Positions 9,603-28,254 of a stretch of 64,000 nt of DNA are shown here, in pieces. Source of the DNA: a virus (lineage: Duplodnaviria; Heunggongvirae; Uroviricota; Caudoviricetes); the IMG/VR virus record IMGVR_UViG_3300018065_000012; one strand, given 5' to 3'. The notes under the pieces were generated by a model. That model did no database searches, was not told the DNA's origin, and saw only the letters and a list, made by a program, of their open reading frames with translations. Position 1 is the stretch's first letter; each line of letters opens with the position of its first letter. Position numbers and translations under genes: made by a program.

Positions 9603-9605
9603 ATT

Positions 9606-9815: not shown

Positions 9816-9823
9816 GGTGAATT

Positions 9824-10696
9824 ATGCCCTACAAACAAAAGACAGAATTCTTTGGAATCCCTTTTATCAGCAACGATGAAACGGTTTCTGAGGCTGAGGA
9901 AAAGAAAGCTGCCAATATAATAGAGAATCAACTTTTGGCGGCAACAAAAGGGGTGCGTTGCGCTGTTTTTGAAGATGGCCATTATCGTCTGGTAGATAAC
10001 GTTGACGGCACTTATACGGTAATGCTTGTAGGTACAGGAGAACGTATCGCATTTGAAGGAATTGTCAACGGTGGTTATTGCTATTCCAAAAACCCCGTGT
10101 TGTGGGAAAAGCTTATCAAGGGAAAAACCTATCATCTGTACGTCAAATTCACTTCTGATTTGTATGCGGACGAACACGCTTTCAAACCGATAACAAAAGA
10201 AAACTTCCCCTATGGCGATAATGTATTCAACGTCTTGTATCTTGCAAAAATTGATTTGTCTGTTGATAAACCGGCTGTTGACGCTCATCCTAATGGGAAG
10301 GTTTACGGCACAGACATTGCTCATCATGCGAATGATAAAACAAACCCTCATGGGCGTGATTTGGTCCAAGACAACTTGGATGTTCAAAAAAGCTTCAAGT
10401 TTCAAGGCGCTGAGTTGTATAATGGTAAAGATGGTATTTTGGATAAGGTTGAAAAATTGTCGACCTTTTCGACGGAAGACGGTTTGCCTTTTATAACATC
10501 TGGCGGGACAACTGGCGTCAACGTAGGCGTAACTGGAAAAATTGTGTCTGTTGATGTAGTTGAAGCAATTTGGGAAGGGCAACCGCCTTCGTTTGAATTG
10601 GGTGAAATTGCAATCAAGATTGAAGGGCAGAACGCGACTATTTACAACAGTGGGAAAGCTGGAATTCCCTTGCACGTATCCGTTTGGTACAGGTAG
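9824..10696 (+). CDS. Hypothetical virion or tail protein (290 aa)
   Basis: Protein-like composition within the tail module. An overlapping 319-aa minus-strand ORF has Cys/Phe-rich junk composition and was rejected. Confidence 0.4.
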   Translation: MPYKQKTEFFGIPFISNDETVSEAEEKKAANIIENQLLAATKGVRCAVFEDGHYRLVDNVDGTYTVMLVGTGERIAFEGIVNGGYCYSKNPVLWEKLIKGKTYHLYVKFTSDLYADEHAFKPITKENFPYGDNVFNVLYLAKIDLSVDKPAVDAHPNGKVYGTDIAHHANDKTNPHGRDLVQDNLDVQKSFKFQGAELYNGKDGILDKVEKLSTFSTEDGLPFITSGGTTGVNVGVTGKIVSVDVVEAIWEGQPPSFELGEIAIKIEGQNATIYNSGKAGIPLHVSVWYR

Positions 10697-10702
10697 AGAA
10701 AA

Positions 10703-11455
10703 ATGGGCGACTTTCCTCACGTATCAAGACAACCTGAATCAGTCATTTACCGCGACAGAGATATTGTTGCTTATATTCCTGACGTTTTGAAAGAAGACAT
10801 TGCTACCGCAATGGAAGTTTTCGACAAACAAAGTGGTACGAGTTTATACAAAGTAGCGGGTGGTAATAATCCCGAAGCGGGTCAACGAATCCTAATGTCA
10901 GGAAGAACGCTTACTAATGGGGTTCTTACGAATGGTTTGAGATGCGCTATTTATAAAACAGGAACTACCGCTACTGACGCAAAAGTTTTGCGGGAGATTA
11001 TCAGCCCAAGAGTTACTTACAATCGGGATGCTAATATCGTTGTGATGTGGTTCTGGACGAATTTTGAATCTGAGGTTACGGAATATGACGATACAGAAGG
11101 GACTCTGTATTGGATTGATGAAGACGATTTTGATTCCAGTAAGACTGTTTACAGAGCACTGTGTTGTACGATTGGCCGTATTGAAAAGCGTTACATCACA
11201 GGAGGGGCGATAGATGGTTCGGGCGCGGCTGATGGTTCTGATTTGTTAACTGTCTTTGAAAAGCCAACGATTTTACAATTGCGCCCAACATCTACGGGCG
11301 GTGGTGTTCCTATTATTGACTTTACTGCTGGTGGTGATTCTGGATTGCTTTACCGAGCAGTAGCAGACCAATCAGGAAATACTATCCAAGTCAAAACGGT
11401 TGATGCTGTTGGCGCGGTTACTGGCGATACAATCGTTTTGCAAGTGGTAACTTAA
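10703..11455 (+). CDS. Hypothetical tail protein (250 aa)
   Basis: Co-oriented and tightly packed within the tail module. Confidence 0.4.
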   Translation: MGDFPHVSRQPESVIYRDRDIVAYIPDVLKEDIATAMEVFDKQSGTSLYKVAGGNNPEAGQRILMSGRTLTNGVLTNGLRCAIYKTGTTATDAKVLREIISPRVTYNRDANIVVMWFWTNFESEVTEYDDTEGTLYWIDEDDFDSSKTVYRALCCTIGRIEKRYITGGAIDGSGAADGSDLLTVFEKPTILQLRPTSTGGGVPIIDFTAGGDSGLLYRAVADQSGNTIQVKTVDAVGAVTGDTIVLQVVT

Positions 11456-13413
11456 TGGCGCTCCCTATTGAAACTGACGCTTATATTCATGGTCTCGGTT
11501 TTGCAGCACCGGGACGGCTTTGGGGAGATATTGTTAGTGGTTCCAATGTAATTAACAATATCTCCCCTTTGAGTTGGATTCACACGGGCATGAAAGTATA
11601 TGTTAACTCTGGAACTACGCGAAATTCAGCTTTCACAAAAGGTTCTCCTATTGTAACGGTGGACACCACTGCGTATTTTATTACTGGAATGCTGATCATT
11701 ATTTCTGCTGTTCGGTTTAGATATACTGGTACAACAGTTATAGGTTCAAAGGAAGTTAATTTGGTTTCAAGTTTCAGAGCTATGACGAATATGGGTGTTG
11801 AAGGAACAGGGATACCGGCTGGCGCAGTTATGGAAACCTATGATGTGCCCGGTAAGAAATTTACAATGGATGTTGAAGCAACCGCAAGTGCTACTGGAGA
11901 CATTTGGTTGTCTACGACTCTTAATCAAGGAATTCCGGCAGGGACGACTATTCTAAGTATCGACAGCCCGACTCAAATAACATTAAGCGAAAACGCCGTA
12001 GAATCAAGTCCTAATTTTTCAATTGGTTATTCTGCTCCTTCTACTTCTTATATTGGAATTCCTGAAGGCACACTAACTACATTGGTGACTCTCCCGAACA
12101 CTGTTGAAATGAGTAAAAACGCAACAGAAACAGGAAGAGCCAACATTTCATTTGAAGGCGTTCCAAACATAGGCGCAATTGAAATGGTTGAACGCGTTAG
12201 TGACCTTCCGAAAATACATAGTGGAGATTTGGTTTACGAGATTCCAACTTTTGATGATGGTGGTTTTGGCTTTCGTGTTTTGCCGATGACGCTGAACGAT
12301 CAATATGGATGGAAGGCGAAAGTAAAACCGCCATATTTTGAAGTTGTTAGCGGAAGCGGTGGAGGCCAGATTGAAAATTTTCTACCAACTTTTGGCGGAA
12401 CTTATTGGCCTTATAACGTGTATACAAACGTCGTTCAGAATGGTGGCGGTGCTCTTCATATTGATTTTTATTCTGATATTGCAAGGACAAATCAATTAGG
12501 TCATACTGAAAGCTATCCTGCGTCGGGGATTGGTTCGCAAAATATAATAGCTGATTCTCAGGATATGGGAGGAAGCATTTCAGTAGATGCATTTGGCCCT
12601 GTTACTACTGATCTTGTTTTAAGGCCGCACAAAAAAGAAGCCGCAATTCGTGCGCCTAAACGATTTTCTGGAACTGCTAATTCTTCTTCATGGCACGCCG
12701 TTGGAAACGAAGCAAATTGTCAATATCAGTTTAATAGTTTAACTTGTTTTACTAAAATGTCAAAAGCTGCTATGATTCCGTTTTGTAATTGGACTACTCA
12801 AATACTTCCACAACTGTCTGCTGCGCCGTCTTTACTGAGAACCGCTCCCGGCGGCACGTTAACGATTAACGATGAAAATTGGGATTTCAAGTTAGCATAT
12901 GTGAATGACTTTTGCTTTAATGGGACAGGGGGGCTTTTGTGCTATCGATGGGTTTCGGAACAAGGGTCGCTTATGCAGGTTGGCGTCATAATGGGTAGTA
13001 TGCCATCAACTCGTTACGATGTTAAGGCGCAAATTGACGTTCAACCCATTGCAAGTTTTGGTGGTGGCCAATATGCTGTTGCTGGTGATGTGACTGTAGC
13101 AGATTTTACCGTTAAAGTAATGGAAGGATACAGCACAACAGGATATTGGTCGGGACCAGTAGCGGGCACTTTTTCGGCAGTATCTGGATTTACTGGAGAG
13201 ATGAGCGTGGCAAGTACAACGGCGGGTCTTACTTTTGAACTTGATACGACTCCTTATGGTTCTGATCCTCGCTTTCTTGGGCTACCAGCAACGAATTGCT
13301 GGTATTCTGCGCCCGGCACTTGGTGTAATGATTTTTTGCAATGTTGGGGAGGTTATCGTTGGGAGTGGGGGCAAACTATTGACGTTGATTTTGCTTACAA
13401 GTATACTGAGTGA
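11455..13413 (+). CDS. Tail fibre or receptor-binding-like protein (652 aa)
   Basis: Gly/Thr/Ser-rich, beta-rich composition typical of fibre or tip proteins. ATGA overlap with the upstream gene. Confidence 0.45.
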   Translation: MALPIETDAYIHGLGFAAPGRLWGDIVSGSNVINNISPLSWIHTGMKVYVNSGTTRNSAFTKGSPIVTVDTTAYFITGMLIIISAVRFRYTGTTVIGSKEVNLVSSFRAMTNMGVEGTGIPAGAVMETYDVPGKKFTMDVEATASATGDIWLSTTLNQGIPAGTTILSIDSPTQITLSENAVESSPNFSIGYSAPSTSYIGIPEGTLTTLVTLPNTVEMSKNATETGRANISFEGVPNIGAIEMVERVSDLPKIHSGDLVYEIPTFDDGGFGFRVLPMTLNDQYGWKAKVKPPYFEVVSGSGGGQIENFLPTFGGTYWPYNVYTNVVQNGGGALHIDFYSDIARTNQLGHTESYPASGIGSQNIIADSQDMGGSISVDAFGPVTTDLVLRPHKKEAAIRAPKRFSGTANSSSWHAVGNEANCQYQFNSLTCFTKMSKAAMIPFCNWTTQILPQLSAAPSLLRTAPGGTLTINDENWDFKLAYVNDFCFNGTGGLLCYRWVSEQGSLMQVGVIMGSMPSTRYDVKAQIDVQPIASFGGGQYAVAGDVTVADFTVKVMEGYSTTGYWSGPVAGTFSAVSGFTGEMSVASTTAGLTFELDTTPYGSDPRFLGLPATNCWYSAPGTWCNDFLQCWGGYRWEWGQTIDVDFAYKYTE

Positions 13414-14318
13414 AAATGCAGCACATAACGTTTGAATGTACTAATTCTCGTCCTGAAGACGCTATCGCTTTGACTGCGGTTATGCGTGATGTTAATTATA
13501 GGTGCAAAGATTATTTTCGTTTCTCGGTTCTTTCGGAAGGCAAGAATTTGTTTCCAGAGATATTTGAAGGCAACCCAAATATTGCAGAGAAAGAATCAGA
13601 GACAACTATTATTCCTTTTGACGGTATTAAAGCAACCGATGACCGGCATCATTTTGACCAATTATCTAAACTTTTCTTTAAGTATACAATGGTGTCTTTC
13701 AGTATAGGCTTTTTTCATGGTGAGCTGTTTCTTACAGATGAAGAAAAAAGTAAGAGTCCGGTTGAAGGAAAATACTACGTCTTTGCTGTTGACAAAAATC
13801 ATCAATGGAATCGTTGGAAAGACCTTCAAAACAAGAATGAAACAAGTCGTGTTGTTTTTATAGGGTTTGACAAAGTGAATATGGAAAACGTTTTGAATAA
13901 ATCGGGCGAACTAACGCTTCGAGAAATTATTCAGCACGCCTATCATGCCGACGCGATAGTGACTACTTGTACATTTGTTCAAAGTGTTGCTGGTGCTTTT
14001 CAGAAACCTTGCGTCTATTTTGCGAAAGAGAATGAATCGCTTACATGGCGTCAATTCGCTTGCTGTCGAATGATTGATGGTTCGTCTGATATTGAACTGG
14101 TTGATAATTGTTTTCATTCTTTTGACAAACCGCCATCAGAAGGGCAACGAGAAACTCCAAAACCGTGCAAACACGCAAAAATGTTGGATGAACTTTGGCA
14201 CGAGACGCGACCTTGCAAGGGGTGCAAAGTGAAGTGCGAAAACCCGAAATGTCCAACTGACACGTGGTATGCTTCTGGATGTAATCCAAAAAAATGTCGA
14301 TTCTTTGAGGAAAACTAA
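13410..14318 (+). CDS. Hypothetical tail-module protein with Cys-rich C-terminus (302 aa)
   Basis: C-terminus reads CKHAKMLDELWHETRPCKGCKVKCENPKCPTDTWYASGCNPKKC. A central segment weakly resembles a GT-B Rossmann fold, unconfirmed. Confidence 0.4.
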   Translation: MKMQHITFECTNSRPEDAIALTAVMRDVNYRCKDYFRFSVLSEGKNLFPEIFEGNPNIAEKESETTIIPFDGIKATDDRHHFDQLSKLFFKYTMVSFSIGFFHGELFLTDEEKSKSPVEGKYYVFAVDKNHQWNRWKDLQNKNETSRVVFIGFDKVNMENVLNKSGELTLREIIQHAYHADAIVTTCTFVQSVAGAFQKPCVYFAKENESLTWRQFACCRMIDGSSDIELVDNCFHSFDKPPSEGQRETPKPCKHAKMLDELWHETRPCKGCKVKCENPKCPTDTWYASGCNPKKCRFFEEN

Positions 14319-14319
14319 A

Positions 14320-14832
14320 ATGTCTGATCAAATATATGGCGACGGGCGTTACAGTGGTTCTTATCAATTGCGCAACGCTGCGCCTGATACAGAGTACGGA
14401 GTCCCCGAACAATTACTTTGTGACATGTATTGGCAAGACGAGATTGAATGCCTCATTGATCGTGTATGGGAGAAAAGCGCGATGGCTTACAAAAATCTTG
14501 ATTTATACAAAGGCAACAACAAACAGTACGTTTGCTATGTGAAAGATCGCACCTTGACCGCAATTGACATTAGCAATGCGGTCTGTACTTTGACGGTGAA
14601 GCGTGAGAAATCCGATGTATCCCCGACGTTTCAGAAAAGCACTAACGTTCCGGGCGAAGGGGAAATTGGAGCAGCGAATAAGGGCGAGTTCTATTTTTAC
14701 ATTGTTCCCGCTGACACGACGTCGCTGGAAACACGGCAGTATGTGTTTGATATCAAAATTGCAATGCCAACTGCAACTCTTTACACCGTTGCCGAAGGTG
14801 TGATCTACATGAGAGAGCCTGTTAATCCGTGA
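14320..14832 (+). CDS. Hypothetical tail-module protein (170 aa)
   Basis: ATG at 14320 (MSDQIYGDGRY...) overlaps the stop of the upstream gene. Last gene before the intergenic promoter region. Confidence 0.4.
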   Translation: MSDQIYGDGRYSGSYQLRNAAPDTEYGVPEQLLCDMYWQDEIECLIDRVWEKSAMAYKNLDLYKGNNKQYVCYVKDRTLTAIDISNAVCTLTVKREKSDVSPTFQKSTNVPGEGEIGAANKGEFYFYIVPADTTSLETRQYVFDIKIAMPTATLYTVAEGVIYMREPVNP

Positions 14833-14865: not shown

Positions 14866-14875
14866 GTTGTATAAT
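14866..14875 (+). promoter_or_regulatory. Promoter-like motif GTTGTATAAT (-10 element with adjacent TG), copy 1
   Basis: Sequence caacaGTTGTATAATatg in the 76-nt gap between the tail module and the SNF2 helicase gene. A 16-nt perfect palindrome aagaaaaatttttctt lies at 14844-14859, and TTGACA at 14836-14841 is 28 nt upstream, which is non-canonical spacing. Confidence 0.4.
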
Positions 14876-19287: not shown

Positions 19288-19297
19288 GTTGTACAAT
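19288..19297 (+). promoter_or_regulatory. Promoter-like motif variant GTTGTACAAT, copy 2
   Basis: Sequence caagcgaGTTGTACAATtataaaagg, followed by the GU-rich leader tcttgtgttttgtgtg and the SD aaggagg before the ATG at 19350. Confidence 0.35.
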
Positions 19298-20470: not shown

Positions 20471-21538
20471 TTGGAAAGCATTCGCGACAAGCTTTCGTTT
20501 GGTGATATTTCTTGGCTCATGCCCAAGATAGACGTTCAGCTTGTTTTGGAGCGGCTCAACGTTCGGTTGCTTCCTAATCGCATGGGAAATCAAATCTACG
20601 GGTGGTGTCCTGATCATTATATCCACGTTAAAAGGAATCCGAGCCATCCGAAATGGACGATTAACGTCGAAACGGGCCAGACGATGTGTTTTACGGAGGG
20701 AAGAGGAAGTAATCTGGTTTGGATCGTTTCAAGGTTGAGAAAGTGCTCTCCCAAAGAAGCCGTCGATTGGATGCTGGGAGATAGCAAAGGGATTTCTAAC
20801 ATGGAAATTGCCAGCTTGAAAAAGCAATTCAAAAAGTTGCGGAGAAAGAAGGCGGCAAGCAAAGGGAAAGCTACCAACCAAGCGGTGGAGAGCGTCAAAC
20901 GGTGGTTGAGAACGGAGACGATGGTGCAAAGTGGATATGAGTATTTTATGCGACCTCCGGGGAAAAAGCCCACGTTGATCGAGAAAGAAACTGTTGACCG
21001 CTATCGTTGCGTGCAATTACGTTCTGGGTATTACGCCAACCGGGTTGTTATTCCGTTCTTCTCGAAGAAGACGCTAATCGGTTTTGAGGCCGTTGATGTT
21101 CTCGGAAAGAAAGAATGGCTTCGACGCCATCCGACGCTTGAAGAGAACCAATATAAGAAGGTTCTCTACTCAAAAGGGTTCAAACGTAGCGAGTATCTTT
21201 TTGGATTGGATGAAATTCAGAGTCAAGAAATAGTCGCCCTGACCGAAGGCGCACGTGAAGTCATGAAATTACGGCAATTGGGATATCCGGCGGTTGCAAT
21301 TTTAGGCGCAAGCGTCAGCCAGAAGCAAATTATGCTTTTGGCAGAAGCCAACCCCAAAAGCTTAATTTTGCTATTCGACGGTGATGATGCGGGTTACGAA
21401 ATTCAGCGCAAGGTTTTCAAGCAAATGAGTGAGTTTTTTGAAACGCATAAAGGGACGGTTCGGCGTGGTTACGACCCCAAAACGCTACCGCCCGAAGAGG
21501 TCAAAAAATTATTTGGAAAGTTTGGATTTTTCTCTTGA
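20471..21538 (+). CDS. dnaG: DnaG-type DNA primase (zinc-binding domain plus TOPRIM)
   Basis: Zn-ribbon CPDHY...HPKW...CFTEGRGSNL. TOPRIM residues in ALTEGAREVMKL...LLFDGDDAG. TTG start at 20471, with an alternative ATG at 20519. Confidence 0.75.
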   Translation: MESIRDKLSFGDISWLMPKIDVQLVLERLNVRLLPNRMGNQIYGWCPDHYIHVKRNPSHPKWTINVETGQTMCFTEGRGSNLVWIVSRLRKCSPKEAVDWMLGDSKGISNMEIASLKKQFKKLRRKKAASKGKATNQAVESVKRWLRTETMVQSGYEYFMRPPGKKPTLIEKETVDRYRCVQLRSGYYANRVVIPFFSKKTLIGFEAVDVLGKKEWLRRHPTLEENQYKKVLYSKGFKRSEYLFGLDEIQSQEIVALTEGAREVMKLRQLGYPAVAILGASVSQKQIMLLAEANPKSLILLFDGDDAGYEIQRKVFKQMSEFFETHKGTVRRGYDPKTLPPEEVKKLFGKFGFFS

Positions 21539-21562
21539 CTTCGAGAGAAAACACGCTATAAT
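21535..21562 (+). promoter_or_regulatory. Near-consensus sigma-70-type promoter (TTGACT, 16 nt spacer, TATAAT) upstream of the phage sigma factor gene
   Basis: TTGACT at 21535-21540 and TATAAT at 21557-21562. Followed by an ~80-nt GU-rich leader (gtgtgttctatgttttgtgttttgcgttgtgtgg). Confidence 0.55.
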
Positions 21563-21646
21563 TAAAGAGCTTAAAATTGTGTGTTCTATGTTTTGTGTTT
21601 TGCGTTGTGTGGCCGGTAATCGGTTCTTTTTACAAAGGGCGCTCCC

Positions 21647-22327
21647 ATGTCTGAAGTAATCACTTCTGAACGTAACTTCAAACAGGTTTTGAAAGAGGAC
21701 GAGATTTGTGATAGCCCATATACTCGTGAAGGGCTTGCCGTGCTCATTGCGGAAGGCGAAGCAAACGAGTTTGAGAAACAGCTTTTCCACGACTCCATTG
21801 TCCGCGCCATTTACACCATCGTTTTTCGCTACGGCGAATGCGATACGCGCGTGCCGGTGGAAGAGCTTGCGAACGACGCAGAATTGGCGTTGTGGAAGAA
21901 CCTGCCTTTCTTCAAAAAGGAAAAAGGCGTCAAGTTTATCACGTGGATGTGGCGTGTGGTTCGGAATCATGTGTTCAATCACCGCAAGCGGGTGACCCGT
22001 TATAGAACGAATCAGAAAATTACGACCAACATGTCTTCAGAGGAAAGCGAGTTTATCACGACTCGCGCTTGCGACGAAAGTCTTTCAAACGCAGACAAGT
22101 CGTGGCAGATGAAAAACGCCATGCAGTTGCTTTTTGATGCTTACCCGGAAAAGCAGAAAATGCTGCTCGCTCTTTTTGGCGATCCGTTTTCTGAAAACTT
22201 TTCAGGAAAGAAGCCGAACTTTGTCCGCGTGGCGAAAAAGTTGAAAACGAAAATGAACGATGTTCGGCGCTTTTGCAATCACGTTGCGTATCCGTTCTTG
22301 AAAAAGCACTTGGACGATCTGTTATAG
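21647..22327 (+). CDS. Phage-encoded RNA polymerase sigma factor (sigma-70 family, regions 2 and 4)
   Basis: KGVKFITWMWRVVRNHVFNHRKR matches sigma-70 region 2.3/2.4 (cf. YKFSTYATWWIRQAITR). The C-terminal region is HTH-like (region 4). Confidence 0.75.
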   Translation: MSEVITSERNFKQVLKEDEICDSPYTREGLAVLIAEGEANEFEKQLFHDSIVRAIYTIVFRYGECDTRVPVEELANDAELALWKNLPFFKKEKGVKFITWMWRVVRNHVFNHRKRVTRYRTNQKITTNMSSEESEFITTRACDESLSNADKSWQMKNAMQLLFDAYPEKQKMLLALFGDPFSENFSGKKPNFVRVAKKLKTKMNDVRRFCNHVAYPFLKKHLDDLL

Positions 22328-22386
22328 AGGGGCAAGCCGTGGCGAGTAAAAAATTTGGCAAGGAGATGAAGCATCTTGAGGACAAT

Positions 22387-22788
22387 ATGAAAATGGGTGC
22401 ATGCTATCGCCATTTTAGAAGCGATTCGGCAAACTGCAAAAACTGTCTCGCAAAATTGCTTTGCAGAAGCGCGACAGCGACGGCGGTTGGCGTTATGGAA
22501 GAGCAGAGTTTTGAAGAGATTTTGATTGAAGAATTGAAAGAGAAATTTCAATTCGCAAGGTCAAAACAAGGAGAAAGCTGCAACTGTTACTGGTTTGAGT
22601 TTGGCCCAATCCCCATTCAAATTTGGATCGCGAAGTCAGGTAATATGAAAATAAGGATTGGTTACGAAAACAACAACAAGGTTTATGAAACGAAGAAAGA
22701 CAGCGTTGAAGAAATAGATAGTTTCGTCAAACAATTGATGGATGATTCCAAAGAGTTTGGGACGGCTCATGCAAACAAGGGAATATGA
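22387..22788 (+). CDS. Hypothetical protein (133 aa). The start is ambiguous (22366, 22387 or 22393).
   Basis: The ORF overlaps the 3' end of the sigma gene in another frame. A Cys cluster CYRHFRSDSANCKNC is present. Confidence 0.35.
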   Translation: MKMGACYRHFRSDSANCKNCLAKLLCRSATATAVGVMEEQSFEEILIEELKEKFQFARSKQGESCNCYWFEFGPIPIQIWIAKSGNMKIRIGYENNNKVYETKKDSVEEIDSFVKQLMDDSKEFGTAHANKGI

Positions 22789-23686
22789 GTATTTCGAGTT
22801 TCCTTTTAACAACTTCAACAAAGCGCAAGCCGCTGCCATTCCGCACATCCCAACCGAAACAAACCTCGTGATTTCATTCCCTACCGCTACTGGCAAAACT
22901 GCGCTGGCCGAAGCAGCTTTCGGTTTTCATTTCAAAACATCCCCAAATTCAAAATGTGTCTATGTGTCGCCGTATCGTTCCTTGAGCATGCAGCAATACA
23001 ATGCATGGAAAGAGAACGCGCAGTTTTCCAAACATGGAATCGTTTTAAGCATAGGTGATCGTTTTGCGTGTAAAGAGGATTTCGATTCAAACCGTTTGAT
23101 TATCTTGACTACAGAATCATTTGACTCGAAGACGAGGAATCAAAGCCAACATAAATGGTTAAAAGAAATTACTTGTATAGTTTTTGACGAAGCGCATTTA
23201 TTGGGGACAAAAGGGCGTGGCGACAACGTAGAAGTTTCATTGGTGCGTTTTACAAAGCTGAACCCAAAAGCAAGAATTATTTTGCTGTCCGCGACAATGG
23301 AAAATGCAGGAGAATTATCGTCGTGGTTGAAAAGTTTGAACAAAAAGACGACGTTGAAAATCGTAAGCACGTGGCGTCCATCAAAAATCGTAACACGCTT
23401 TTACACGTTCGATGATGAAAAGACTTGGGAAAAGAAAATTGAGTTAGCAAAGCAGCTTGCAACAACTCCACGTGGTGAAAAAATAGTCGTTTTTGTTCAT
23501 AGTAAAAAGCTTGGGAAAGAAATTACGAAGGCAGTTAGAAAAAAGGGTTTCATTTGCGAATTTCATAATGCAAATTTATCGCACTCAAGGCGAAAAGCAA
23601 TTGAAGAAGCATTCGACAATGTCCGTTCGGGGTTGGACATCCTTGTGAGTACATCAACATTGTCAAGTGGAGTGAATTTAGGATGA
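22769..23686 (+). CDS. Ski2/Hel308-like SF2 DNA helicase, N-terminal fragment (motifs Q to V); the split gene's first part
   Basis: Q-motif FNKAQAAAI, motif I PTATGKT, II VFDEAHLL (DEAH), III LLSATMEN, V STSTLSSGVNLG. It terminates at a TGA overlapping the ATG of the following gene. An alternative start is at 22742. Confidence 0.8.
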   Translation: MQTREYEYFEFPFNNFNKAQAAAIPHIPTETNLVISFPTATGKTALAEAAFGFHFKTSPNSKCVYVSPYRSLSMQQYNAWKENAQFSKHGIVLSIGDRFACKEDFDSNRLIILTTESFDSKTRNQSQHKWLKEITCIVFDEAHLLGTKGRGDNVEVSLVRFTKLNPKARIILLSATMENAGELSSWLKSLNKKTTLKIVSTWRPSKIVTRFYTFDDEKTWEKKIELAKQLATTPRGEKIVVFVHSKKLGKEITKAVRKKGFICEFHNANLSHSRRKAIEEAFDNVRSGLDILVSTSTLSSGVNLG

Positions 23687-24264
23687 ACAAGGCGGAACGT
23701 CTCACAGAATTGCAACAGAAGTGCTATGCTTGTAAGAAGTGTGCCATTGGCGGGCAAGACGTTGATGGTCATTTGAGCAACGTGTGGTCTAATATGAGCA
23801 TGAAAGCTCAAATCATGGTAATAGGGCAGAATCCCGGTTACGTTGAAGTAGAACGTGGAAAACCTTTTGTCGGGCCGTCGGGTGAATTTTTTGATAAGGC
23901 AATTGAAGAAGTTTTAGGAATTGATAGAACGCATTTTTACATTACGAATACGTGCCACTGCTATACGGCAAAAAACCGCAAGCCAAGCAATGTCGAAATT
24001 GAAAATTGTTGCGAATTTTTAGACGCTGAAATCGAAGCCGTAAACCCAAAAATCATCGTGACCTTGGGAGCGCCATCGTTGGAGCAGGTGACTGGGCGAA
24101 AAGGAATAATGAAACTTCATGGTCAAAAGATAATTTCATTACGATACAAAAAGAACGTTTTGCCCCTATTGCATCCAAGCCCAAGAAATATGAACAAGCC
24201 TGAATTGAAAGTGAAATTTTATCAAGACTTAGAAGTCCTCAAAGAATATCTCAATGGCAGATAG
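23683..24264 (+). CDS. Uracil-DNA glycosylase superfamily protein (family 4-like, Fe-S Cys motifs), inserted between the helicase halves
   Basis: N-terminal CYACKKC Cys pair, motif A-like IGQNPG...GKPFVGPSG (cf. GEGPG...G.PFVG.aG), motif B HPSPRN (cf. HPSPLN), and further Cys at TNTCHCY and ENCCEF. Confidence 0.7.
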   Translation: MNKAERLTELQQKCYACKKCAIGGQDVDGHLSNVWSNMSMKAQIMVIGQNPGYVEVERGKPFVGPSGEFFDKAIEEVLGIDRTHFYITNTCHCYTAKNRKPSNVEIENCCEFLDAEIEAVNPKIIVTLGAPSLEQVTGRKGIMKLHGQKIISLRYKKNVLPLLHPSPRNMNKPELKVKFYQDLEVLKEYLNGR

Positions 24265-25252
24265 AATTGTTATTGTAGACATCTGGCGTGGCCGAGAGCG
24301 CGTTTCAACGGCAGAAATTTTGCAGATGGCAGGCCGGTGTGCCCGGCAACCAAACCAAATAGGTCATGTTGATATCATTATTAACGAAGATGACGTACAA
24401 ACGTTGAAAGATGAAATGCAGGACGCAGATCATCTTCGAGTTGATTCTGTTCTGTACGATGCAGAAACGCTTGCTTTTCATCTCGTTTCTGAAATTAGCA
24501 GCGGGGAGATAAGGACGCTTTCAGAGGCAAAAAGATGGTACGGAAAAAGTTTCGCGGCGTTTACGGGGTTTTCTTGTGAAGTGGAGCAAGCAGTTGACTT
24601 GCTTTCTGAAGAATGGGAGACAATAACGCGCCGGGGCGATTTTCTTTTTCCTACAGATTTGGCGCATATCGCGAGTCGTTTTTATTTTCATCCAGCAGAC
24701 ATTTACTATTGGCGGGAAAATTTTTTTGAGCTTTTTGAAAGTGAACTTCAAAAAAATGATCCAGCAATTGCTTGGGCGCTATCTAATGTCGCGAGAGAGC
24801 GAAAAAGGGGCAATCTGTACGGTTGTTGGGAGTTGATAGAAGAATACAAAGACCAAGTGTCTTCACTTGGCTTAGACTGTTCAAAAACGATTGCTGGTGG
24901 CTTGGTTTGGTGGAGTCTTTTAGGAGGGCCGTCAACAAGCAAACTGTCCAGTCAAAAGAAAGAAGCAAAAGAGGATTTCGGGCGCATTTATGGTGCGCTC
25001 TTAAAGATCAACGAATGCTCGGGATGGGACAAACGGAAGTTTTTTGAGGATTTGAGAGTACGGATAGCATACAAAATCCCTGATGAACTTGTAAACTTGT
25101 GTAAACTTGAAGGAATTGGAAAAAGTGTTGCGTTTGAGTTGTATAATTTAGGAGTGGAAAACGCGGAAGGAATTCGTGAAAACTGGGACGCAATTGAAAC
25201 GTTTGGAACTGACGAACTGATAGAAAAATTGAGACACTTGTCTTATGGCTAA
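24254..25252 (+). CDS. Ski2/Hel308-like helicase, C-terminal fragment (motif VI, winged helix/ratchet, HhH domain 5)
   Basis: It begins MADRIVIVD...ILQMAGRCAR (motif VI QMAGRAGR) and has a C-terminal HhH GIGKSVAFEL. It is in the same reading frame as the N-terminal fragment, and the ATG lies 8 nt inside the 3' end of the UDG ORF. Confidence 0.8.
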   Translation: MADRIVIVDIWRGRERVSTAEILQMAGRCARQPNQIGHVDIIINEDDVQTLKDEMQDADHLRVDSVLYDAETLAFHLVSEISSGEIRTLSEAKRWYGKSFAAFTGFSCEVEQAVDLLSEEWETITRRGDFLFPTDLAHIASRFYFHPADIYYWRENFFELFESELQKNDPAIAWALSNVARERKRGNLYGCWELIEEYKDQVSSLGLDCSKTIAGGLVWWSLLGGPSTSKLSSQKKEAKEDFGRIYGALLKINECSGWDKRKFFEDLRVRIAYKIPDELVNLCKLEGIGKSVAFELYNLGVENAEGIRENWDAIETFGTDELIEKLRHLSYG

Positions 25253-25715
25253 AGATTTTTGGTTTACAGAGCGGGCAGTCAAAGCTTTCACACAAGCGGC
25301 TGATAATGGAGAGCTATCTCCTCGTCACGTTCGTGATGTAATCCGTTACAAGACTCTCAATATTGATGAGACATTGTTCGAGCCTTACTTGAAGTCAAGC
25401 AATGATTGGGTACGCAGGTGTACTGCGCAAGTGCTTGGAGAAATTGGCAGTAATCTAAAGCCATTAATTGAAGCCGCAAAGATAGAGCAGAACAAAAGCA
25501 CGCTGATAGAAATATTAAAACAATTGATGAAAAGCCGCGAAGGACTTGAAGAGTTAGTTTATTTGCTTGAGTCGAAAGATACGGCAATCAAAGAGCAGGC
25601 AATTGGTATGTTCAGACGTGCTGGTCGTTCAGATTGTTTAATGACGTTGCTTTTTGATGACGATGATTCGATGGTAAGCCGTATCAAGCGGTATATGGAC
25701 GAAGCAAATAAATGA
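25245..25715 (+). CDS. HEAT/PBS-lyase-like repeat protein (156 aa)
   Basis: Repeated pattern as in DWVRRCTAQVLGEIGS...ELVYLLESKDTAIKEQAIGMFRRAG. Confidence 0.5.
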   Translation: MAKDFWFTERAVKAFTQAADNGELSPRHVRDVIRYKTLNIDETLFEPYLKSSNDWVRRCTAQVLGEIGSNLKPLIEAAKIEQNKSTLIEILKQLMKSREGLEELVYLLESKDTAIKEQAIGMFRRAGRSDCLMTLLFDDDDSMVSRIKRYMDEANK

Positions 25716-26392
25716 TTTCACGGCACGGTATTTCTTCGACACGAGAAGCAAGGTACAAGCGATTTCACTTGTGGCTCGTAGAAATGTCAACGCTGTATGG
25801 GGTTGTTGATGATCCAGAGTTGAGAGATGTTATACATATTTTGCTTGAAAAACTTGAGAACAGAATAAGCGCAAATAAAGAACAAGAAGAAGGAAAGCGC
25901 AAGAAAAAAGTACGCAGTTTCTTTGCAATCTTCAAACAAAAATATCTTCAATTAACAGATTTGGAATATTTTGGAGGATTCAAAGCAACAGAAGCAAAAA
26001 TCATTGAAGGTTTGATAGGAAAACTGGAGCAAAATGGCGCAACGATGGAAGAGTATCTCAAGTGGTTGTTTGACGAGTTTTATATCAACAAAGAACAACT
26101 GTCTCCAAACATTCCTTTGTCCGTAAGTAATAGTGTCTTGCAAGAGTTCATGTATAAAAACGCGGCAAAGCTCAAAAATAGGAAACAGGCAAAAGAAGCC
26201 ATAGAAGAGGAAGAATTGCTTTTGAGAAGGGCAGGCGTTCTCATACGGTCAAGCAAGGACGAAGGCTTTAAGCAAGAAGTGGTTACGCTATTGAAGCATT
26301 ATCAAAAATCCGAATGCAATTTGCCAGAGTTTCGGTTAGAGCTTAAAAAATTATCAGAAAAGTTTGAAAAACTTAAAAGCCAAAGTGTATAA
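25712..26392 (+). CDS. Hypothetical protein (226 aa)
   Basis: ATGA overlap with the upstream gene. Charged, helical composition. Confidence 0.4.
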   Translation: MISRHGISSTREARYKRFHLWLVEMSTLYGVVDDPELRDVIHILLEKLENRISANKEQEEGKRKKKVRSFFAIFKQKYLQLTDLEYFGGFKATEAKIIEGLIGKLEQNGATMEEYLKWLFDEFYINKEQLSPNIPLSVSNSVLQEFMYKNAAKLKNRKQAKEAIEEEELLLRRAGVLIRSSKDEGFKQEVVTLLKHYQKSECNLPEFRLELKKLSEKFEKLKSQSV

Positions 26393-26448
26393 TTGAAAAG
26401 CATGAGTTTTGTTGTTGGTCGTTTGTACTTTGTAATAAGGGTTGAGCG

Positions 26449-27104: not shown

Positions 27105-28211
27105 ATGGGCGATAGCGTTTTAGACAAGGTAAAGAAGTTTCGAGAAAGTCGGCCAAAGGGTCAGAATTTCAAAAAGCAAAGGGACATTTTCTTCAAGTTT
27201 GAAGATGGCGACAACATCATTCGTCTGGTGGGAGAATTCTTGGAAGTAAAGACGCATTTTATTTCTCCAAACCATCAACGGGGTGATCGTGGCCTTTGCA
27301 TTTCGGAAGCGTTCAAAGGAGAAGGCAGATTGCCAAAAATGATCAATTGCCCGAATTGGGACATTGAAAATGAAAAGGCAAAAGAGGAGAAAACGTGCCC
27401 TATTTGCAAGCTTTGGCGCGTTGCGAAAAACGCGCTCAAAGAAGCAGGACAAGAAATTGAACCGCAGGACAAGCAGTTTCTTGAAAACCTTGTAAGCGAC
27501 GCAAGCGTTACCACGGCGTTGAAGTGGAACGTTATTGATCGTCGAAGCCCCAACGTTACAGAAGTTGATGATGCTGGCGTTGAAAAACAGGTTTTGGGGT
27601 ACAAGGTTGCGAACATAGGAATGGAAGCGTGGAACGATGTTGACGGGATTTTCAAGCAGCTAAAAGTTGATATTAGTGACGCTAAAGAAGGCGTTGATAT
27701 CAATATTATCAAAGGACACAACGGCGCTCGTGTTTGCTATTCTGCTGTTGCCGTTACACAGGGAATGAGCGTGAAACAAACGCCATTGACTGATGAAGAA
27801 AAGAAAATGACGCTTCATGACTTGCGTCGCATCGCGGGTCGCATGGTTGAACCTCAAAAAATCGTTGACGGTTTACATGATGACTTGCGGGAAATTCTTG
27901 AAAGCGCAGAGGGAGAGACAACGCCTTCAAGCGAAGAAGCTCCCGCAAGTGAAAGCGCGGTTACGAGCGAACCAGAATCTCAGGAAGAAAGTACGCCGGA
28001 AGAAGAGAAAGAAAAGCCGGAGAAAAAGAGAATGCCGCCGCTGAGTGAAGGTTTTGGCGATGACTTTTCCGACGATAAAGAAAAGGACAAAGAAAAGCCG
28101 ACTTGGGATTGTTTTGGAACGGTTGATGATCCAAGCCACGACGAGTGCGCAAAGTGTGACAGCCTTGCGGATTGCATCATTGAAGCAAAGAAACGCGCAA
28201 GCAAGGAATAA
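27105..28211 (+). CDS. Putative ssDNA-binding protein (Zn-binding Cys motif, acidic C-terminal tail)
   Basis: Position directly upstream of recA. Cys/His cluster (LCIS...INCPNW...CPICKLW) and acidic C-terminus (EGFGDDFSDDKEKD) reminiscent of gp32/SSB tails. The OB fold could not be verified by eye. Confidence 0.4.
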   Translation: MGDSVLDKVKKFRESRPKGQNFKKQRDIFFKFEDGDNIIRLVGEFLEVKTHFISPNHQRGDRGLCISEAFKGEGRLPKMINCPNWDIENEKAKEEKTCPICKLWRVAKNALKEAGQEIEPQDKQFLENLVSDASVTTALKWNVIDRRSPNVTEVDDAGVEKQVLGYKVANIGMEAWNDVDGIFKQLKVDISDAKEGVDINIIKGHNGARVCYSAVAVTQGMSVKQTPLTDEEKKMTLHDLRRIAGRMVEPQKIVDGLHDDLREILESAEGETTPSSEEAPASESAVTSEPESQEESTPEEEKEKPEKKRMPPLSEGFGDDFSDDKEKDKEKPTWDCFGTVDDPSHDECAKCDSLADCIIEAKKRASKE

Positions 28212-28219
28212 GGAAAACT

Positions 28220-28254
28220 GGGAAGGCTCAGTTTCTGAGCCTTCCCTTTTATTT
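28220..28254 (+). terminator. Rho-independent terminator
   Basis: Perfect 12-bp stem gggaaggctcag/ctgagccttccc with a ttt loop, followed by ttttattt. Confidence 0.7.

What the first reader, a model, noticed from the sequence alone, without database searches (positions are those of the whole stretch)
21535..22327. Phage sigma factor gene driven by a near-consensus host-type promoter
The 21647..22327 product has clear sigma-70 region 2.3/2.4 (FITWMWRVVRNHVFNHRKR) and a region-4-like C-terminus, and it is the only sigma-family gene in the window. Its own promoter, TTGACT at 21535 with a 16-nt spacer and TATAAT at 21557, is canonical for a host sigma-70/sigma-A holoenzyme. This suggests a cascade: host RNAP drives the phage sigma factor, which then drives late gene expression. 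The downstream overlapping small Cys-containing ORF (22387..22788) could be a partner or anti-sigma.
Basis: partly seen in the sequence, partly recalled or inferred. Interest (0 to 1): 0.5.

Follow-up and report, generated by a model that had tools for sequence, protein, structure and literature searches.

The report
Phage sigma factor with host-type promoter
A probable giant phage carries its own RNA-polymerase sigma factor gene behind a host-style promoter, always paired with a small four-cysteine protein; this is a familiar takeover strategy in an undescribed sigma family.

Summary
ORF 21647..22327 encodes a two-domain, ECF-like sigma-70-family protein. Pfam Sigma70_r2 scores 37.8 bits. The C-terminal half aligns with sigma-E region 4 only by profile-profile comparison and by fold. 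TTGACT-16-TATAAT sits at 21535..21562, with its -35 hexamer overlapping the primase stop codon. Six of ten diverged relatives (sigma 25-37% identical) also have a better-than-chance sigma-70-type promoter at this junction, so it is not a chance match.

Three things are new. A conserved 5-bp hairpin (21612..21624) lies in the sigma leader of 10 lineages. The downstream ORF, which really starts at 22339, follows sigma in 10 of 10 lineages and carries a C-x10-C-x2-C-x5-C module. It shows no anti-sigma or WhiB signature. A second promoter-like motif, GTTGTATAAT, stands 6-39 nt upstream of eight predicted gene starts, most of the identifiable ones being replication genes.

The host-to-phage sigma cascade is plausible. 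It parallels SPO1 gp28 and phiEco32 gp36. The targets of this sigma are not established. GTTGTATAAT is the only candidate in the window, but it could equally be read by the host sigma. Structural-gene promoters lie outside the window.

This is a new variant of a known kind, of moderate interest.

The parts
20471..21538 (+). Toprim/DnaG-like primase gene; its TGA stop (21536-21538) lies inside the -35 hexamer of the sigma promoter
   Evidence: Pfam Toprim_2 and Toprim; phrog_47 DNA primase at E 1e-24. Primase directly precedes sigma in all ten relatives whose contig covers the region upstream of sigma.
21535..21540 (+). -35 hexamer TTGACT
   Evidence: A TTGA overlapping the primase stop codon is also seen in L005 and L082.
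21557..21562 (+). -10 hexamer TATAAT (16-nt spacer; no TG extension)
   Evidence: shuffle P 0.003.
21568..21646 (+). Inferred 5' UTR of about 78 nt. The transcription start at about 21568/21569 is inferred from the position of the -10 hexamer and is not mapped.
   Evidence: Inference. In relatives the -10 hexamer lies about 60-85 nt from the start codon.
21579..21613 (+). G/T-rich tract in the leader (TGTGTGTTCTATGTTTTGTGTTTTGCGTTGTGTGG)
   Evidence: One of only three intergenic stretches of 24 nt or more with at least 92% G+T in the window. Two of them merge into this tract; the third follows the other sigma-70-like promoter at 26364. GT-rich leaders are also present in L004 and L005.
21612..21624 (+). 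Conserved leader hairpin GCCGG-UAA-UCGGU (5-bp stem, triloop), 22 nt upstream of the AUG
   Evidence: Present in 10 lineages. 98% of cells are paired, there are two independent compensatory pairs, and all five wobble cells are G.U on the sense strand; 3 of 500 shuffles reach the observed value. The pattern has one exact match in the window. No Rfam hit.
21634..21639 (+). Shine-Dalgarno-like AAAGGG, 7 nt before the ATG
   Evidence: Sequence.
21647..22327 (+). Sigma factor gene (226 aa), two-domain ECF-like sigma-70-family protein of an uncharacterised phage family
21800..22000 (+). Region 2 (residues 52-118), including FITWMWRVVRN (2.3/2.4-like)
   Evidence: Pfam PF04542 at 37.8 bits. The family profile hits RpoE, SigW and SigA region 2 in the PDB. 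Foldseek gives rmsd 2.1-2.4 A over 93-100 alignment columns to isolated sigma-E region 2.
22088..22312 (+). Region-4-like C-terminal domain (residues 148-222: four helices with a 14-residue insertion loop at 178-191)
   Evidence: AF2 pLDDT is above 90 for most of this domain. hhalign is colinear with E. coli sigma-E regions 4.1 and 4.2, probability 94.9% for the whole alignment. Not detected by Pfam r4 models in 27 family members.
22339..22788 (+). Conserved partner gene (149 aa, GTG start): N-terminal four-Cys module plus a C-terminal alpha-beta5-alpha domain
   Evidence: It lies immediately downstream of sigma, or overlaps it, in 10 of 10 lineages.
22402..22464 (+). C-x10-C-x2-C-x5-C module (Cys22, Cys33, Cys36, Cys42); presumed metal or Fe-S site
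   Evidence: The four Cys are invariant in the 3-way alignment and conserved in all 10 lineages. Metal binding is inferred and was not tested.
14866..14875 (+). GTTGTATAAT motif, 34 nt upstream of the SNF2 helicase gene (candidate second-class promoter)
19288..19297 (+). GTTGTACAAT motif upstream of the HD-domain gene (true start probably 19350). Read-through from here could reach primase and sigma.
36078..36087 (+). GTTGTATAAT, 5 nt before ATG 36093 (leaderless-type arrangement)
37027..37036 (+). GTTGTATAGT upstream of ORF 37075
39180..39189 (+). ATTGTATAAT upstream of the DnaE-type Pol III alpha gene (39227)
45167..45176 (+). GTTGTATAAT upstream of gyrB (45198)
53049..53058 (+). TTTGTATAAT upstream of ORF 53068
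57278..57287 (+). GTTGTATAAT upstream of the SbcC-like ATPase gene (57304)

Best explanation
The window comes from a probable jumbo phage; the same protein occurs on a 338-kb contig. In the phage's replication module, between primase and a helicase, sits a gene for a two-domain (sigma2 + divergent sigma4) ECF-like sigma factor. It belongs to an uncharacterised family known only from metagenomes.

Shown:
- The protein has a bona fide sigma region 2 and a region-4-like helical domain.
- A near-consensus sigma-70/sigma-A-type promoter (TTGACT-16-TATAAT) overlaps the primase stop codon. Such a promoter recurs at this junction in most diverged relatives.
- The roughly 78-nt leader carries a conserved hairpin just upstream of the ribosome-binding site.
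- The gene is always followed, often with overlapping stop and start codons, by a small protein with a C-x10-C-x2-C-x5-C module.

Inferred:
- Early in infection the unmodified host holoenzyme transcribes sigma and its Cys4 partner from this promoter.
- The phage sigma then replaces the host sigma on the core enzyme and redirects it to phage promoters.
- The best candidates for those promoters in this window are the single-element GTTGTATAAT sites in front of replication-type genes. I put that assignment at about 0.4.
- One such site (19288) lies upstream of the HD-primase-sigma stretch, so read-through would give positive feedback.
- The Cys4 protein is a dedicated partner of the sigma, either an inhibitor or a co-factor, and possibly depends on a metal or Fe-S cluster.
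- The hairpin acts on the mRNA, controlling translation or stability.

The confidence of 0.7 applies to the core claim: a functional phage sigma made from a host-type promoter that starts a host-to-phage sigma cascade. The sub-claims on its targets and on the partner's role are rated separately and lower.
For: Sigma identity:
- Pfam r2 at E 1.7e-9; sigma70-ECF superfamily and many ECF equivalogs hit weakly.
- The family profile hits RpoE, SigW and SigA in the PDB.
- The AF2 model has pLDDT 85 and two helical domains. All listed fold matches are sigma factors, with about 200 aligned columns to ECF sigmas.
- hhalign against sigma-E gives 94.9% probability and is colinear through regions 4.1 and 4.2.

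Promoter:
- 11 of 12 consensus positions.
- Best hits in relatives: L007 12/12, L085 10/12, L005 10/12, L004 10/12 plus a TGn extension, L084 9/12. Shuffle P is 0.05 or less in 6 of 10 lineages. My own Fisher combination of the ten P values gives about 2e-5; the lineages are related, so this is approximate.

Hairpin.

Partner gene: strict synteny in 10 of 10 lineages. A Cys4 module is inserted in the sigma2-sigma4 linker of the L085 sigma (weak at 4.9 bits).

GTTGTATAAT:
- 15 hits with at most one mismatch against 3.3 expected; 13 are on the coding strand and 6 are exact.
- 8 hits lie 6-39 nt upstream of the gene starts used.
- It is the only enriched intergenic word apart from the SD sequence.
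- The TG sits one base closer to TATAAT than in the canonical extended -10 (sequence).

Precedents: the phiEco32 gp36 sigma uses a single-element promoter tAATGTAtA, and a small partner, gp79, modulates it (PMC8948821, PMC12276001). In SPO1 the host sigma-A drives early genes before a switch to phage sigmas (PMC13401047).

Phage context: relatives are IMG/VR viral contigs. The window also has a tape-measure-like gene, DnaE, gyrase, ligase and a tubulin-like gene.
Against: - No experimental data exist. No transcription start is mapped and the host is unknown. The nearest GyrA sequences retrieved are from Bacillota, but that sample is biased by the search patterns.
- Region 4 is invisible to Pfam, and the protein scores below the TIGR02937 cut-off (34.5 against 42.9).
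- Four of ten relatives lack a convincing promoter at this junction (L082, L083, L086 and L088, shuffle P above 0.3). In L084 the gap is only 18 nt and its 9/12 site lies inside the 3' end of primase, so sigma can also be co-transcribed with primase.
- GTTGTATAAT contains a perfect host -10 hexamer. Relatives show canonical extended -10 motifs (TTGGTATAAT in L085, GATGGTATAAT in L088) at comparable places. That fits host sigma-A at least as well as the phage sigma.
- ECF-type sigmas with an intact sigma4 normally need a -35 element, and none is conserved upstream of GTTGTATAAT; there is only an A-rich patch.
- The Cys4 protein matches no anti-sigma, ZAS or WhiB profile, and its fold search is uninformative.
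Confidence: 0.7

Rival explanations
1. Both promoter classes in the window are read by the host primary sigma. These are the -35/-10 sites at 21535 and 26364 and the -10-only GTTGTATAAT sites. On this reading the phage sigma acts on late or structural promoters that lie outside this window, which is exactly the first reader's cascade.
For: - GTTGTATAAT carries a perfect TATAAT hexamer and an upstream TG.
- Relatives have canonical TGnTATAAT motifs in equivalent intergenic places.
- The genes behind the motif are replication or middle-type genes.
- The tail-like operon at 29..14832 has no internal promoter gap.
- No third motif is enriched in the window.
Against: - The TG is out of register by one base relative to TGnTATAAT.
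- Six of the ten-base sites are identical, which is tighter than typical host promoters.
- The syntenic sites in L005 carry a different 14-mer, TCATATAACACATC, which lacks the critical final T of a -10 hexamer.
- The two classes are sharply distinct, which suggests different readers or a switch.
Confidence: 0.35
2. The small Cys4 protein is a cognate anti-sigma factor. It holds the phage sigma inactive until a redox or metal signal, or titration, releases it, in the way that ECF sigma and ZAS anti-sigma pairs work.
For: - Gene order and translational coupling are typical of sigma/anti-sigma pairs: a gap of 11 nt here and overlapping stop and start codons in L007, L086 and L088.
- Four invariant Cys are consistent with a metal or redox sensor.
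- The N-terminal 50 residues are predicted as four short helices (low confidence).
Against: - There is no H-x3-C-x2-C motif.
- No zf-HC2, RsrA-like or other anti-sigma Pfam or NCBIfam hit appears even at E of 1 or less.
- The same Cys module also occurs at the C-terminus of an unrelated 368-aa protein (27105..28211) and inside a sigma linker. That looks more like a general metal-binding module than an anti-sigma domain.
- An inhibitor made in equal amounts with a takeover sigma is not obviously useful to a lytic phage.
Confidence: 0.2
3. The Cys4 protein is a positive co-factor or a remodeller of the host sigma. In this role it would resemble phiEco32 gp79, T4 gp33/AsiA or the actinobacterial WhiB proteins, which bind sigma region 4 or the beta flap. 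It would switch RNAP from -35-dependent promoters to -10-only promoters.
For: - Precedents for small phage proteins encoded with or acting on sigma (PMC12276001, PMC8948821).
- The Cys spacing CXnCX2CX5C equals the Wbl and Fe-S pattern; this rests on my own knowledge.
- The two promoter classes differ exactly in their dependence on a -35 element.
- The Cys module is inserted next to sigma4 in the L085 sigma.
Against: - There is no sequence or fold similarity to gp79, AsiA, gp33 or WhiB.
- The evidence is analogy plus synteny only.
Confidence: 0.25
4. The palindromic element at 21612..21624 is a DNA operator for a dimeric repressor rather than an RNA hairpin.
For: The element is a near-perfect 13-bp palindrome. 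Its sequence is more conserved than a short hairpin would need to be (GCCG...CGGC in 8 of 10 lineages). Compensatory changes keep it palindromic as well.
Against: - All five imperfect cells are G.T on the sense strand, which is G.U in RNA. None is the A.C type that a DNA palindrome would tolerate equally.
- The element lies about 45 nt downstream of the inferred start and directly before the SD sequence. That is typical of translational operators, not of repressor sites.
Confidence: 0.2
5. The promoter match is fortuitous and sigma is simply co-transcribed with primase.
For: The region is AT-rich. L084 has only an 18-nt gap, and four relatives have weak matches. There is no convincing terminator after primase.
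Against: The window's shuffle P is 0.003. The site sits in one of about 20 short gaps. Matches of 10/12 or better recur in L007, L085, L005 and L004, and my Fisher combination over all ten lineages gives about 2e-5.
Confidence: 0.08

Closest known systems
Bacillus phage SPO1 gp28 (middle sigma) cascade
   Same: A phage-encoded sigma is made from a host sigma-A-type promoter and then redirects host core RNAP to a later gene class that includes replication genes (PMC13401047, and my own knowledge of SPO1).
   Different: No detectable sequence relationship was tested or found. Here the sigma keeps an ECF-like sigma2 + sigma4 build, has an obligatory Cys4 neighbour and a conserved leader hairpin, and sits between primase and helicase.
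phiEco32 gp36 sigma with gp79, and the phage 7-11 gp47 sigma
   Same: - A divergent phage sigma is encoded among the DNA polymerase and nucleotide-metabolism genes.
- gp36 promoters are a single -10-like element, tAATGTAtA, with starts 6-8 nt downstream. This shares the TGTATA core with GTTGTATAAT.
- Promoter motifs differ between related phages while keeping their genome positions.
- A small partner protein modulates the switch (PMC8948821, PMC12276001).
   Different: - gp36 is said to lack region 4 homology, whereas this protein has a region-4-like domain.
- The motif here contains a full host TATAAT hexamer.
- gp79 has no described Cys cluster, and no similarity to the Cys4 protein was found.
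- The best PHROG sigma hit is only E 8e-5.
T4 gp55 / gp33 late transcription
   Same: A minimal phage sigma reads a -10-only promoter (TATAAATA, from my own knowledge) with a small co-factor. Jumbo 'group 2' phages commonly encode sigmas and gp33 (PMC7824862).
   Different: gp55 has no sigma4. The T4 system depends on the sliding clamp. No gp33 or gp55 profile hit was found here.
Bacterial ECF (group 4) sigma / anti-sigma pairs, including the ZAS class
   Same: Two-domain sigma without regions 1.1 and 3. An FxTWxxR-type region 2.3/2.4. A co-transcribed and often translationally coupled downstream gene with conserved Cys.
   Different: - The score is below the TIGR02937 cut-off and there is no Pfam r4 hit.
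- No AAC/CGT-type autoregulated promoter is present.
- The partner lacks HxxxCxxC and any anti-sigma profile.
- There is a family-specific N-terminal PVTxExLA motif.
WhiB-like (Wbl) Fe-S proteins that bind sigma-A region 4
   Same: A small protein with C-Xn-C-X2-C-X5-C spacing that is functionally tied to a sigma factor. This comparison rests on my own knowledge of Wbl proteins.
   Different: There is no Pfam Whib match at E of 1 or less, no GVWGG turn and no actinobacterial context. There is an additional beta-rich C-terminal domain.

Membership tests
sigma-70 family | Region 2 (core binding, -10 recognition and melting) | tested here: met
   PF04542 at 37.8 bits against a gathering score of 24. 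26 of 27 family members match. The family profile hits PDB sigma region 2. Foldseek gives rmsd 2.1-2.4 A to sigma-E region 2.
sigma-70 family | Region 4 (helix-turn-helix, -35 recognition and flap binding) | tested here: inconclusive
   No Pfam r4 hit in 27 members. However, hhalign is colinear with sigma-E regions 4.1 and 4.2 (94.9% for the whole alignment), the AF2 model gives a confident 4-helix C-terminal domain, and ECF sigma structures align over about 200 columns.
sigma-70 family | Binds core RNAP and confers promoter-specific initiation | not testable with these tools
   Needs biochemistry.
ECF (group 4) sigma | Only sigma2 and sigma4, joined by a short linker, with no region 1.1 or 3 | tested here: met
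   226 aa. AF2 helices run from 27 to 129 and from 148 to 222, with a disordered linker at about 130-147.
ECF (group 4) sigma | Scores above the sigma70-ECF model cut-off (TIGR02937) | tested here: not met
   34.5 bits against a cut-off of 42.9.
ECF (group 4) sigma | Autoregulated promoter with an AAC-type -35 and a CGT-type -10 | tested here: not met
   The gene's own promoter is TTGACT-16-TATAAT. No ECF-type motif is enriched in the intergenic regions.
sigma-70/sigma-A-type promoter | TTGACA-like and TATAAT-like hexamers 16-18 nt apart, upstream of a gene | tested here: met
   11 of 12 positions, 16-nt spacer, 85 nt before the ATG.
sigma-70/sigma-A-type promoter | Conserved in position among diverged relatives | tested here: met
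   6 of 10 lineages have shuffle P of 0.05 or less. My Fisher combination gives about 2e-5.
sigma-70/sigma-A-type promoter | Mapped transcription start and dependence on the host holoenzyme | not testable with these tools
   No transcript data are available.
ZAS / class I anti-sigma factor (for ORF 22339..22788) | H-x3-C-x2-C zinc motif, or a zf-HC2 or anti-sigma domain profile | tested here: not met
   The motif is absent from the sequence (C-x10-C-x2-C-x5-C instead). No such Pfam or NCBIfam hit appears at E of 1 or less.
WhiB-like proteins (for ORF 22339..22788) | C-Xn-C-X2-C-X5-C cysteine spacing | tested here: met
   Cys22, Cys33, Cys36 and Cys42 are conserved in 10 lineages. The spacing rule itself comes from my own knowledge.
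WhiB-like proteins (for ORF 22339..22788) | Match to the Whib profile (PF02467) and a G[VI]WGG turn | tested here: not met
   No Pfam hit at E of 1 or less in three members. The turn motif is absent from the alignment.
Sigma partner by genomic association (for ORF 22339..22788) | Invariant adjacency to the sigma gene across lineages | tested here: met
   10 of 10 lineages with sequence downstream of sigma.

The most novel reading that the evidence does not exclude
The sigma and the Cys4 protein form a previously undescribed phage transcription switch. A metal- or Fe-S-cluster-bearing partner controls a divergent ECF-like phage sigma. That sigma reads single-element GTTGTATAAT promoters of the replication genes. 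Its own synthesis is gated by a conserved leader hairpin acting as a translational operator. Phage middle transcription would then be coupled to the host's redox or iron state.
Probability: 0.2. Interest if true: 0.65.

Novelty: new variant of a known kind. Interest (0 to 1): 0.4.

Why it matters
Phage-encoded sigma factors that hijack host RNA polymerase are textbook biology, so the core finding is not surprising. What is new is the family. It comprises about 90 clusters at 50% identity, all from metagenomes and none characterised. In the 12 relatives whose contigs were examined, the gene sits in a fixed module of primase, sigma, Cys4 protein and split helicase. Most carry a conserved leader hairpin and most a host-type promoter.

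If the Cys4 protein proves to be a metal- or Fe-S-dependent regulator of the sigma, it would add a new type of sigma partner. It would also offer an orthogonal pair of sigma, promoter and regulator for synthetic biology. The window gives a clear, testable two-class promoter map for an uncultivated jumbo phage.

Tried and rejected
- Megablast of 20000-26000 against GenBank phages found nothing. tblastn of the sigma gave one weak hit.
- The word-indexed protein search found only the protein itself and one 37% relative. The exhaustive search was needed to define the family.
- The 27-sequence alignment was too diverse for locus retrieval. A 4-sequence alignment found one viral locus and two metagenome loci, one of which duplicates the viral one. 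The primase alignment worked better.
- A scan of viral contigs with DnaE as a single protein found nothing.
- Rfam found nothing in the sigma leader, in the helicase/UDG junction, or at gathering score anywhere in the window.
- The whole-leader RNA fold is no more stable than shuffled sequences (z = +1.4). Only the small hairpin is supported.
- A terminator or attenuator reading of the hairpin was rejected, because the U-run is present only in this window and not in relatives.
- The Cys4 protein has no homologues beyond three proteins and no Pfam, NCBIfam or PHROG family. Its N-terminus is modelled at pLDDT below 50. PDB and viral fold searches were uninformative, and the afdb50 library was unavailable.
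- The idea that GTTGTATAAT is a canonical extended -10 was rejected on register: the TG is at -14/-13.
- The idea that GTTGTATAAT is clearly specific to the phage sigma was weakened by canonical TGnTATAAT motifs in relatives.
- A literature search for TTGTATAAT was useless.
- The host could not be identified. There are no tRNAs, and the nearest GyrA sequences retrieved are from Bacillota, in a pattern-biased sample.


Full report
**1. The observation.**
ORF 21647..22327 (ATG, 226 aa) contains KFITWMWRVVRNHVFNHRKR. TTGACT occupies 21535-21540, and after a 16-nt spacer TATAAT occupies 21557-21562. The consensus scan scores this 11 of 12.

In my scan of the whole window, three + strand sites and no - strand sites reach 11 of 12, against 0.68 +/- 0.79 expected per strand. 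Two of the three (21535 and 26364) abut short intergenic gaps. Shuffling the 139-nt primase-sigma interval reaches 11 of 12 with P = 0.003. The -35 hexamer overlaps the TGA stop codon of the upstream gene.

**2. Context.**
Nearly all plausible genes in the window lie on the + strand. The finding sits in a replication module:
- SNF2 helicase (14909)
- DnaB-like helicase (16739)
- an HD-domain protein
- a Toprim primase (20471..21538)
- the sigma gene
- a small Cys protein
- a DEAD/Hjm-like helicase that is split by a UDG gene

Further on come a RecA-like gene (by synteny with L008), a DnaE-type Pol III alpha, GyrB and GyrA, an NAD-dependent ligase, a tubulin-like protein and an SbcC-like ATPase. 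A 2146-aa tape-measure-like ORF lies at the left end.

The exact sigma protein occurs on 11 contigs, the longest being 338 kb. Relatives are catalogued as IMG/VR viral contigs. No GenBank phage is similar at the DNA level. The element is therefore a probable uncultivated jumbo phage.

The host is unknown. There are no tRNAs. The nearest GyrA sequences retrieved are all from Bacillota and their allies, at 37-47% identity, but the retrieval is biased by the search patterns.

**3. The protein.**
- Pfam Sigma70_r2 matches residues 52-118 (E 1.7e-9, 37.8 bits, gathering score 24).
- NCBIfam places it nearest the sigma70-ECF superfamily model, but below its cut-off (34.5 against 42.9), with weak hits to many ECF equivalogs.
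- An exhaustive search of 1.8 billion cluster representatives finds only 92 relatives at E of 1e-3 or less, and 14 at E of 1e-10 or less.
- The family aligns over its full length. It shares an N-terminal PVTxExLA motif, the KFTTWxW region 2.3/2.4 signature, and a C-terminal ILxxxFGDP...ARxxG...VxxFYxxxVxPFL block.
- The family profile hits RpoE, SigW and SigA region 2 in the PDB.
- No member matches a Pfam region 4 model.
- hhalign against E. coli sigma-E is colinear from region 2 through regions 4.1 and 4.2, at 94.9% probability.
- The AlphaFold model (pLDDT 85) has two helical domains joined by a disordered linker at about residues 130-147.
- All listed fold matches are sigma factors, and ECF sigmas align over about 200 columns.

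I conclude that this is a two-domain, ECF-like sigma with a divergent sigma4. It belongs to an uncharacterised phage family. A family HMM finds no second sigma-like ORF among the 523 six-frame ORFs of the window.

**4. The promoter is conserved in relatives.**
I collected 12 further lineages, with sigma 25-37% identical: L004, L005/L008, L007/L011, L080-L086 and L088. The contigs of L080 and L081 do not cover the gene upstream of sigma. In the other ten, sigma directly follows the primase gene.

| Lineage | Best sigma-70-type match at the junction |
|---|---|
| L007 | TTGACA-16-TATAAT (12/12) |
| Window | TTGACT-16-TATAAT (11/12) |
| L085 | TTGCAA-17-TATAAT (10/12) |
| L005 | TTGATT-17-TATAAT (10/12) |
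| L004 | TTGGAA-17-TGgTATAAT (10/12 plus extension) |
| L084 | TTGATT-16-TCTAAT (9/12) |
| L082 | TTGATT-16-TACAAT (9/12) |
| L086 | TTGACT-17-TATTAA (9/12) |
| L083, L088 | poor (8/12 each) |

L081 and L080, outside the ten scored, show extended -10 elements.

Per-lineage shuffle P values are 0.05 or less in 6 of 10 lineages. My own Fisher combination of the ten values gives about 2e-5. The lineages are related, so this figure is approximate, although the DNA here is otherwise unalignable. The promoter is therefore real and ancestral to much of the group, but it is not universal. In L084 the gap is only 18 nt, so co-transcription with primase also occurs.

**5. A conserved leader hairpin.**
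Between the promoter and the SD sequence the window has GCCGGTAATCGGT (21612-21624). The scan had flagged it as a weak terminator. The same element, GCCGR-WWW-YCGGC, lies 14-33 nt before the sigma start codon in 10 lineages.
- On a 10-lineage alignment, 98% of cells pair.
- Two different positions show compensatory C-G or G-C to U-A changes, in L007 and L088.
- All five imperfect but allowed cells are G.U on the sense strand.
- Only 3 of 500 shuffles reach the observed values.
- The pattern has a single exact match in the window, and no Rfam family matches.
- The U-run that follows it here is absent in relatives, so it is not a conserved terminator.

I read it as an RNA hairpin acting on translation or stability. 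A DNA operator cannot be excluded, because the element is palindromic.

The leader is also unusually G/U-rich (21579-21613). The only other intergenic tract of this kind follows the second sigma-70-like promoter at 26364.

**6. The downstream ORF.**
Gene callers on other assemblies start it at GTG 22339. The ORF is therefore 22339..22788 (149 aa), 11 nt after the sigma stop.

A homologous ORF follows sigma in all 10 lineages where sequence continues, and it overlaps the sigma stop in three of them. All share G-x-C-x10-C-x2-C-x5-C-(R/K)-x-x-T.

No Pfam, NCBIfam or PHROG family matches. In particular there is no zf-HC2 or anti-sigma hit and no Whib hit. In the AlphaFold model the Cys region is unreliable (pLDDT below 50). 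The model also shows a confident alpha-beta5-alpha C-terminal domain with no informative fold neighbours.

The same Cys module recurs in three other places:
- at the C-terminus of window ORF 27105..28211 (CFGTVDDPSHDECAKCDSLADC);
- in an L086 ORF;
- inserted in the sigma2-sigma4 linker of the L085 sigma (CFGNCDDPAHPECVKCRLSEAC). The HMM score there is only 4.9 bits, so this is suggestive and no more.

From my own knowledge, the spacing is that of Fe-S sites: EndoIII/MutY C-x6-C-x2-C-x5-C, and Wbl, AddB and Cas4 C-xn-C-x2-C-x5-C. The protein is thus a conserved, probably metal-binding, partner of the sigma. Whether it inhibits or assists the sigma is open.

**7. A second promoter class.**
GTTGTATAAT with at most one mismatch occurs 15 times against 3.3 expected. 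Thirteen hits are on the + strand and six are exact. Eight hits lie 6-39 nt upstream of the gene starts used. For the HD gene the true start is probably 19350, which puts that site about 52 nt upstream. The genes are the SNF2 helicase, the HD protein, 36093, 37075, DnaE, GyrB, 53068 and the SbcC-like ATPase.

It is the only enriched intergenic word besides the SD sequence. No -35 element is conserved upstream; there is only an A-rich patch about 13-16 nt before the motif. The TG sits at -14/-13, one base closer to TATAAT than in the canonical extended -10.

L005 lacks the motif. At the syntenic SNF2 and DnaB sites it has two copies of TCATATAACACATC instead. That resembles the phiEco32 and 7-11 situation, where diverged phage sigmas read different motifs at conserved genome positions, and where gp36 reads a single element, tAATGTAtA (PMC8948821).

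Against this, L085 and L088 carry canonical TGgTATAAT motifs in comparable gaps, and TATAAT is the host hexamer. I therefore rate 'the phage sigma reads GTTGTATAAT' at about 0.4 and 'the host sigma reads it' at about 0.35-0.45.

**8. Mechanism.**
Shown: a sigma gene, a conserved host-type promoter, a conserved leader hairpin, an obligatory Cys4 neighbour, and a sharply distinct second promoter class.

Inferred: the host holoenzyme transcribes sigma and the Cys4 gene early in infection. The phage sigma then redirects core RNAP to phage promoters. Read-through from the 19288 site could feed back on sigma, although only a weak terminator-like hairpin at 20379 intervenes. The Cys4 protein and the hairpin tune the activity and the synthesis of the sigma.

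The tail-like operon (29..14832) is gap-free and its promoter lies outside the window.

**9. Comparison and novelty.**
The logic is that of SPO1 gp28, phiEco32 gp36/gp79 and T4 gp55/gp33. Sigma factors are common in jumbo phages that lack their own RNAP (PMC7824862). Membership of the sigma-70 family is met for region 2 and is probable for region 4. Formal ECF membership is not met, because the score is below the cut-off and no ECF-type promoter is present. The partner fails both the ZAS and the WhiB profile tests.

This is a new variant of a known kind. The notable features are the fixed primase-sigma-Cys4 module, the leader hairpin and the possibly Fe-S-bearing partner. Interest is moderate (0.4).

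Noticed in passing
window 22742..25252: An SF2 (Hjm/Ski2-like) helicase is split inside its core. ORF 22742..23686 ends at motif V (...STSTLSSGVNLG). A family-4-type UDG ORF (23683..24264) follows in another frame. ORF 24254..25252 then resumes with ADRIVIVD...QMAGRCAR (motif VI). The two helicase parts are in the same frame, 567 nt apart. The layout is conserved in L005, L007, L082, L085 and L086. L008 has an extra DUF559 (Vsr-like endonuclease) ORF between helicase-N and UDG. No Rfam intron matches.
   Followed up: partly
window 26364..26448: A second near-consensus sigma-70-type promoter (TTGAAA-18-TATAAT, 11/12) overlaps the end of ORF 25712..26392. It is followed by a G/T-rich leader (26403-26426) before ORF 26449. 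The syntenic gap in L005 (15784-15837) also has TATAAT plus a GT-rich leader.
   Followed up: partly
window 27105..28211 (C-terminus, residues ~340-361): The Cys module of the sigma partner recurs here as CFGTVDDPSHDECAKCDSLADC, at the C-terminus of a 368-aa protein with no Pfam family. Similar modules occur in L086 (17556-17775) and inside the L085 sigma.
   Followed up: partly
window 36078..36095 and 53049..53073: GTTGTATAAT-type motifs end only 5-9 nt before the predicted start codons. If they are promoters, these mRNAs would be leaderless or nearly so.
   Followed up: no
L005 3187..3200 and 5022..5035: Two exact copies of TCATATAACACATC lie upstream of the SNF2 and DnaB genes of the closest long relative. 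In this window the SNF2 site carries GTTGTATAAT and the DnaB gap has no motif. This may be a lineage-specific promoter element.
   Followed up: partly
window 32248..33663: Tubulin/FtsZ-family GTPase ORF (Pfam Tubulin E 3e-11) in a phage that, in this window, shows no phage-encoded RNAP subunits.
   Followed up: no
window 28220..28246 and 38265..38300: Two strong GC-rich hairpins. One is a 12-bp bidirectional terminator-like stem after ORF 27105..28211. The other is GGGGATGGCGGGGGAG...CTCCCCCGCCATT after ORF 37075..38253. They probably mark operon ends.
   Followed up: no
window 9816..10702: The greedy ORF map prefers a - strand ORF (9761..10720) here. A + strand ORF (about 9825..10700) fits the all-plus gene order better. 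It contains an exact GTTGTATAAT at 10414 inside coding sequence, and another internal copy lies at 25138.
   Followed up: no
window 42752..42950: An unannotated small ORF appears to encode a basic zinc-ribbon-like peptide (…YYCPICCSMKTY…YDYCDAW), read from the sequence in the 199-nt gap after the DnaE gene.
   Followed up: no
L085 11143..12252: The sigma of this relative is about 369 aa, because of large insertions between regions 2 and 4. These include the Cys4-like segment and a duplicated 'GDPD..ER' region-4.1-like stretch.
   Followed up: partly
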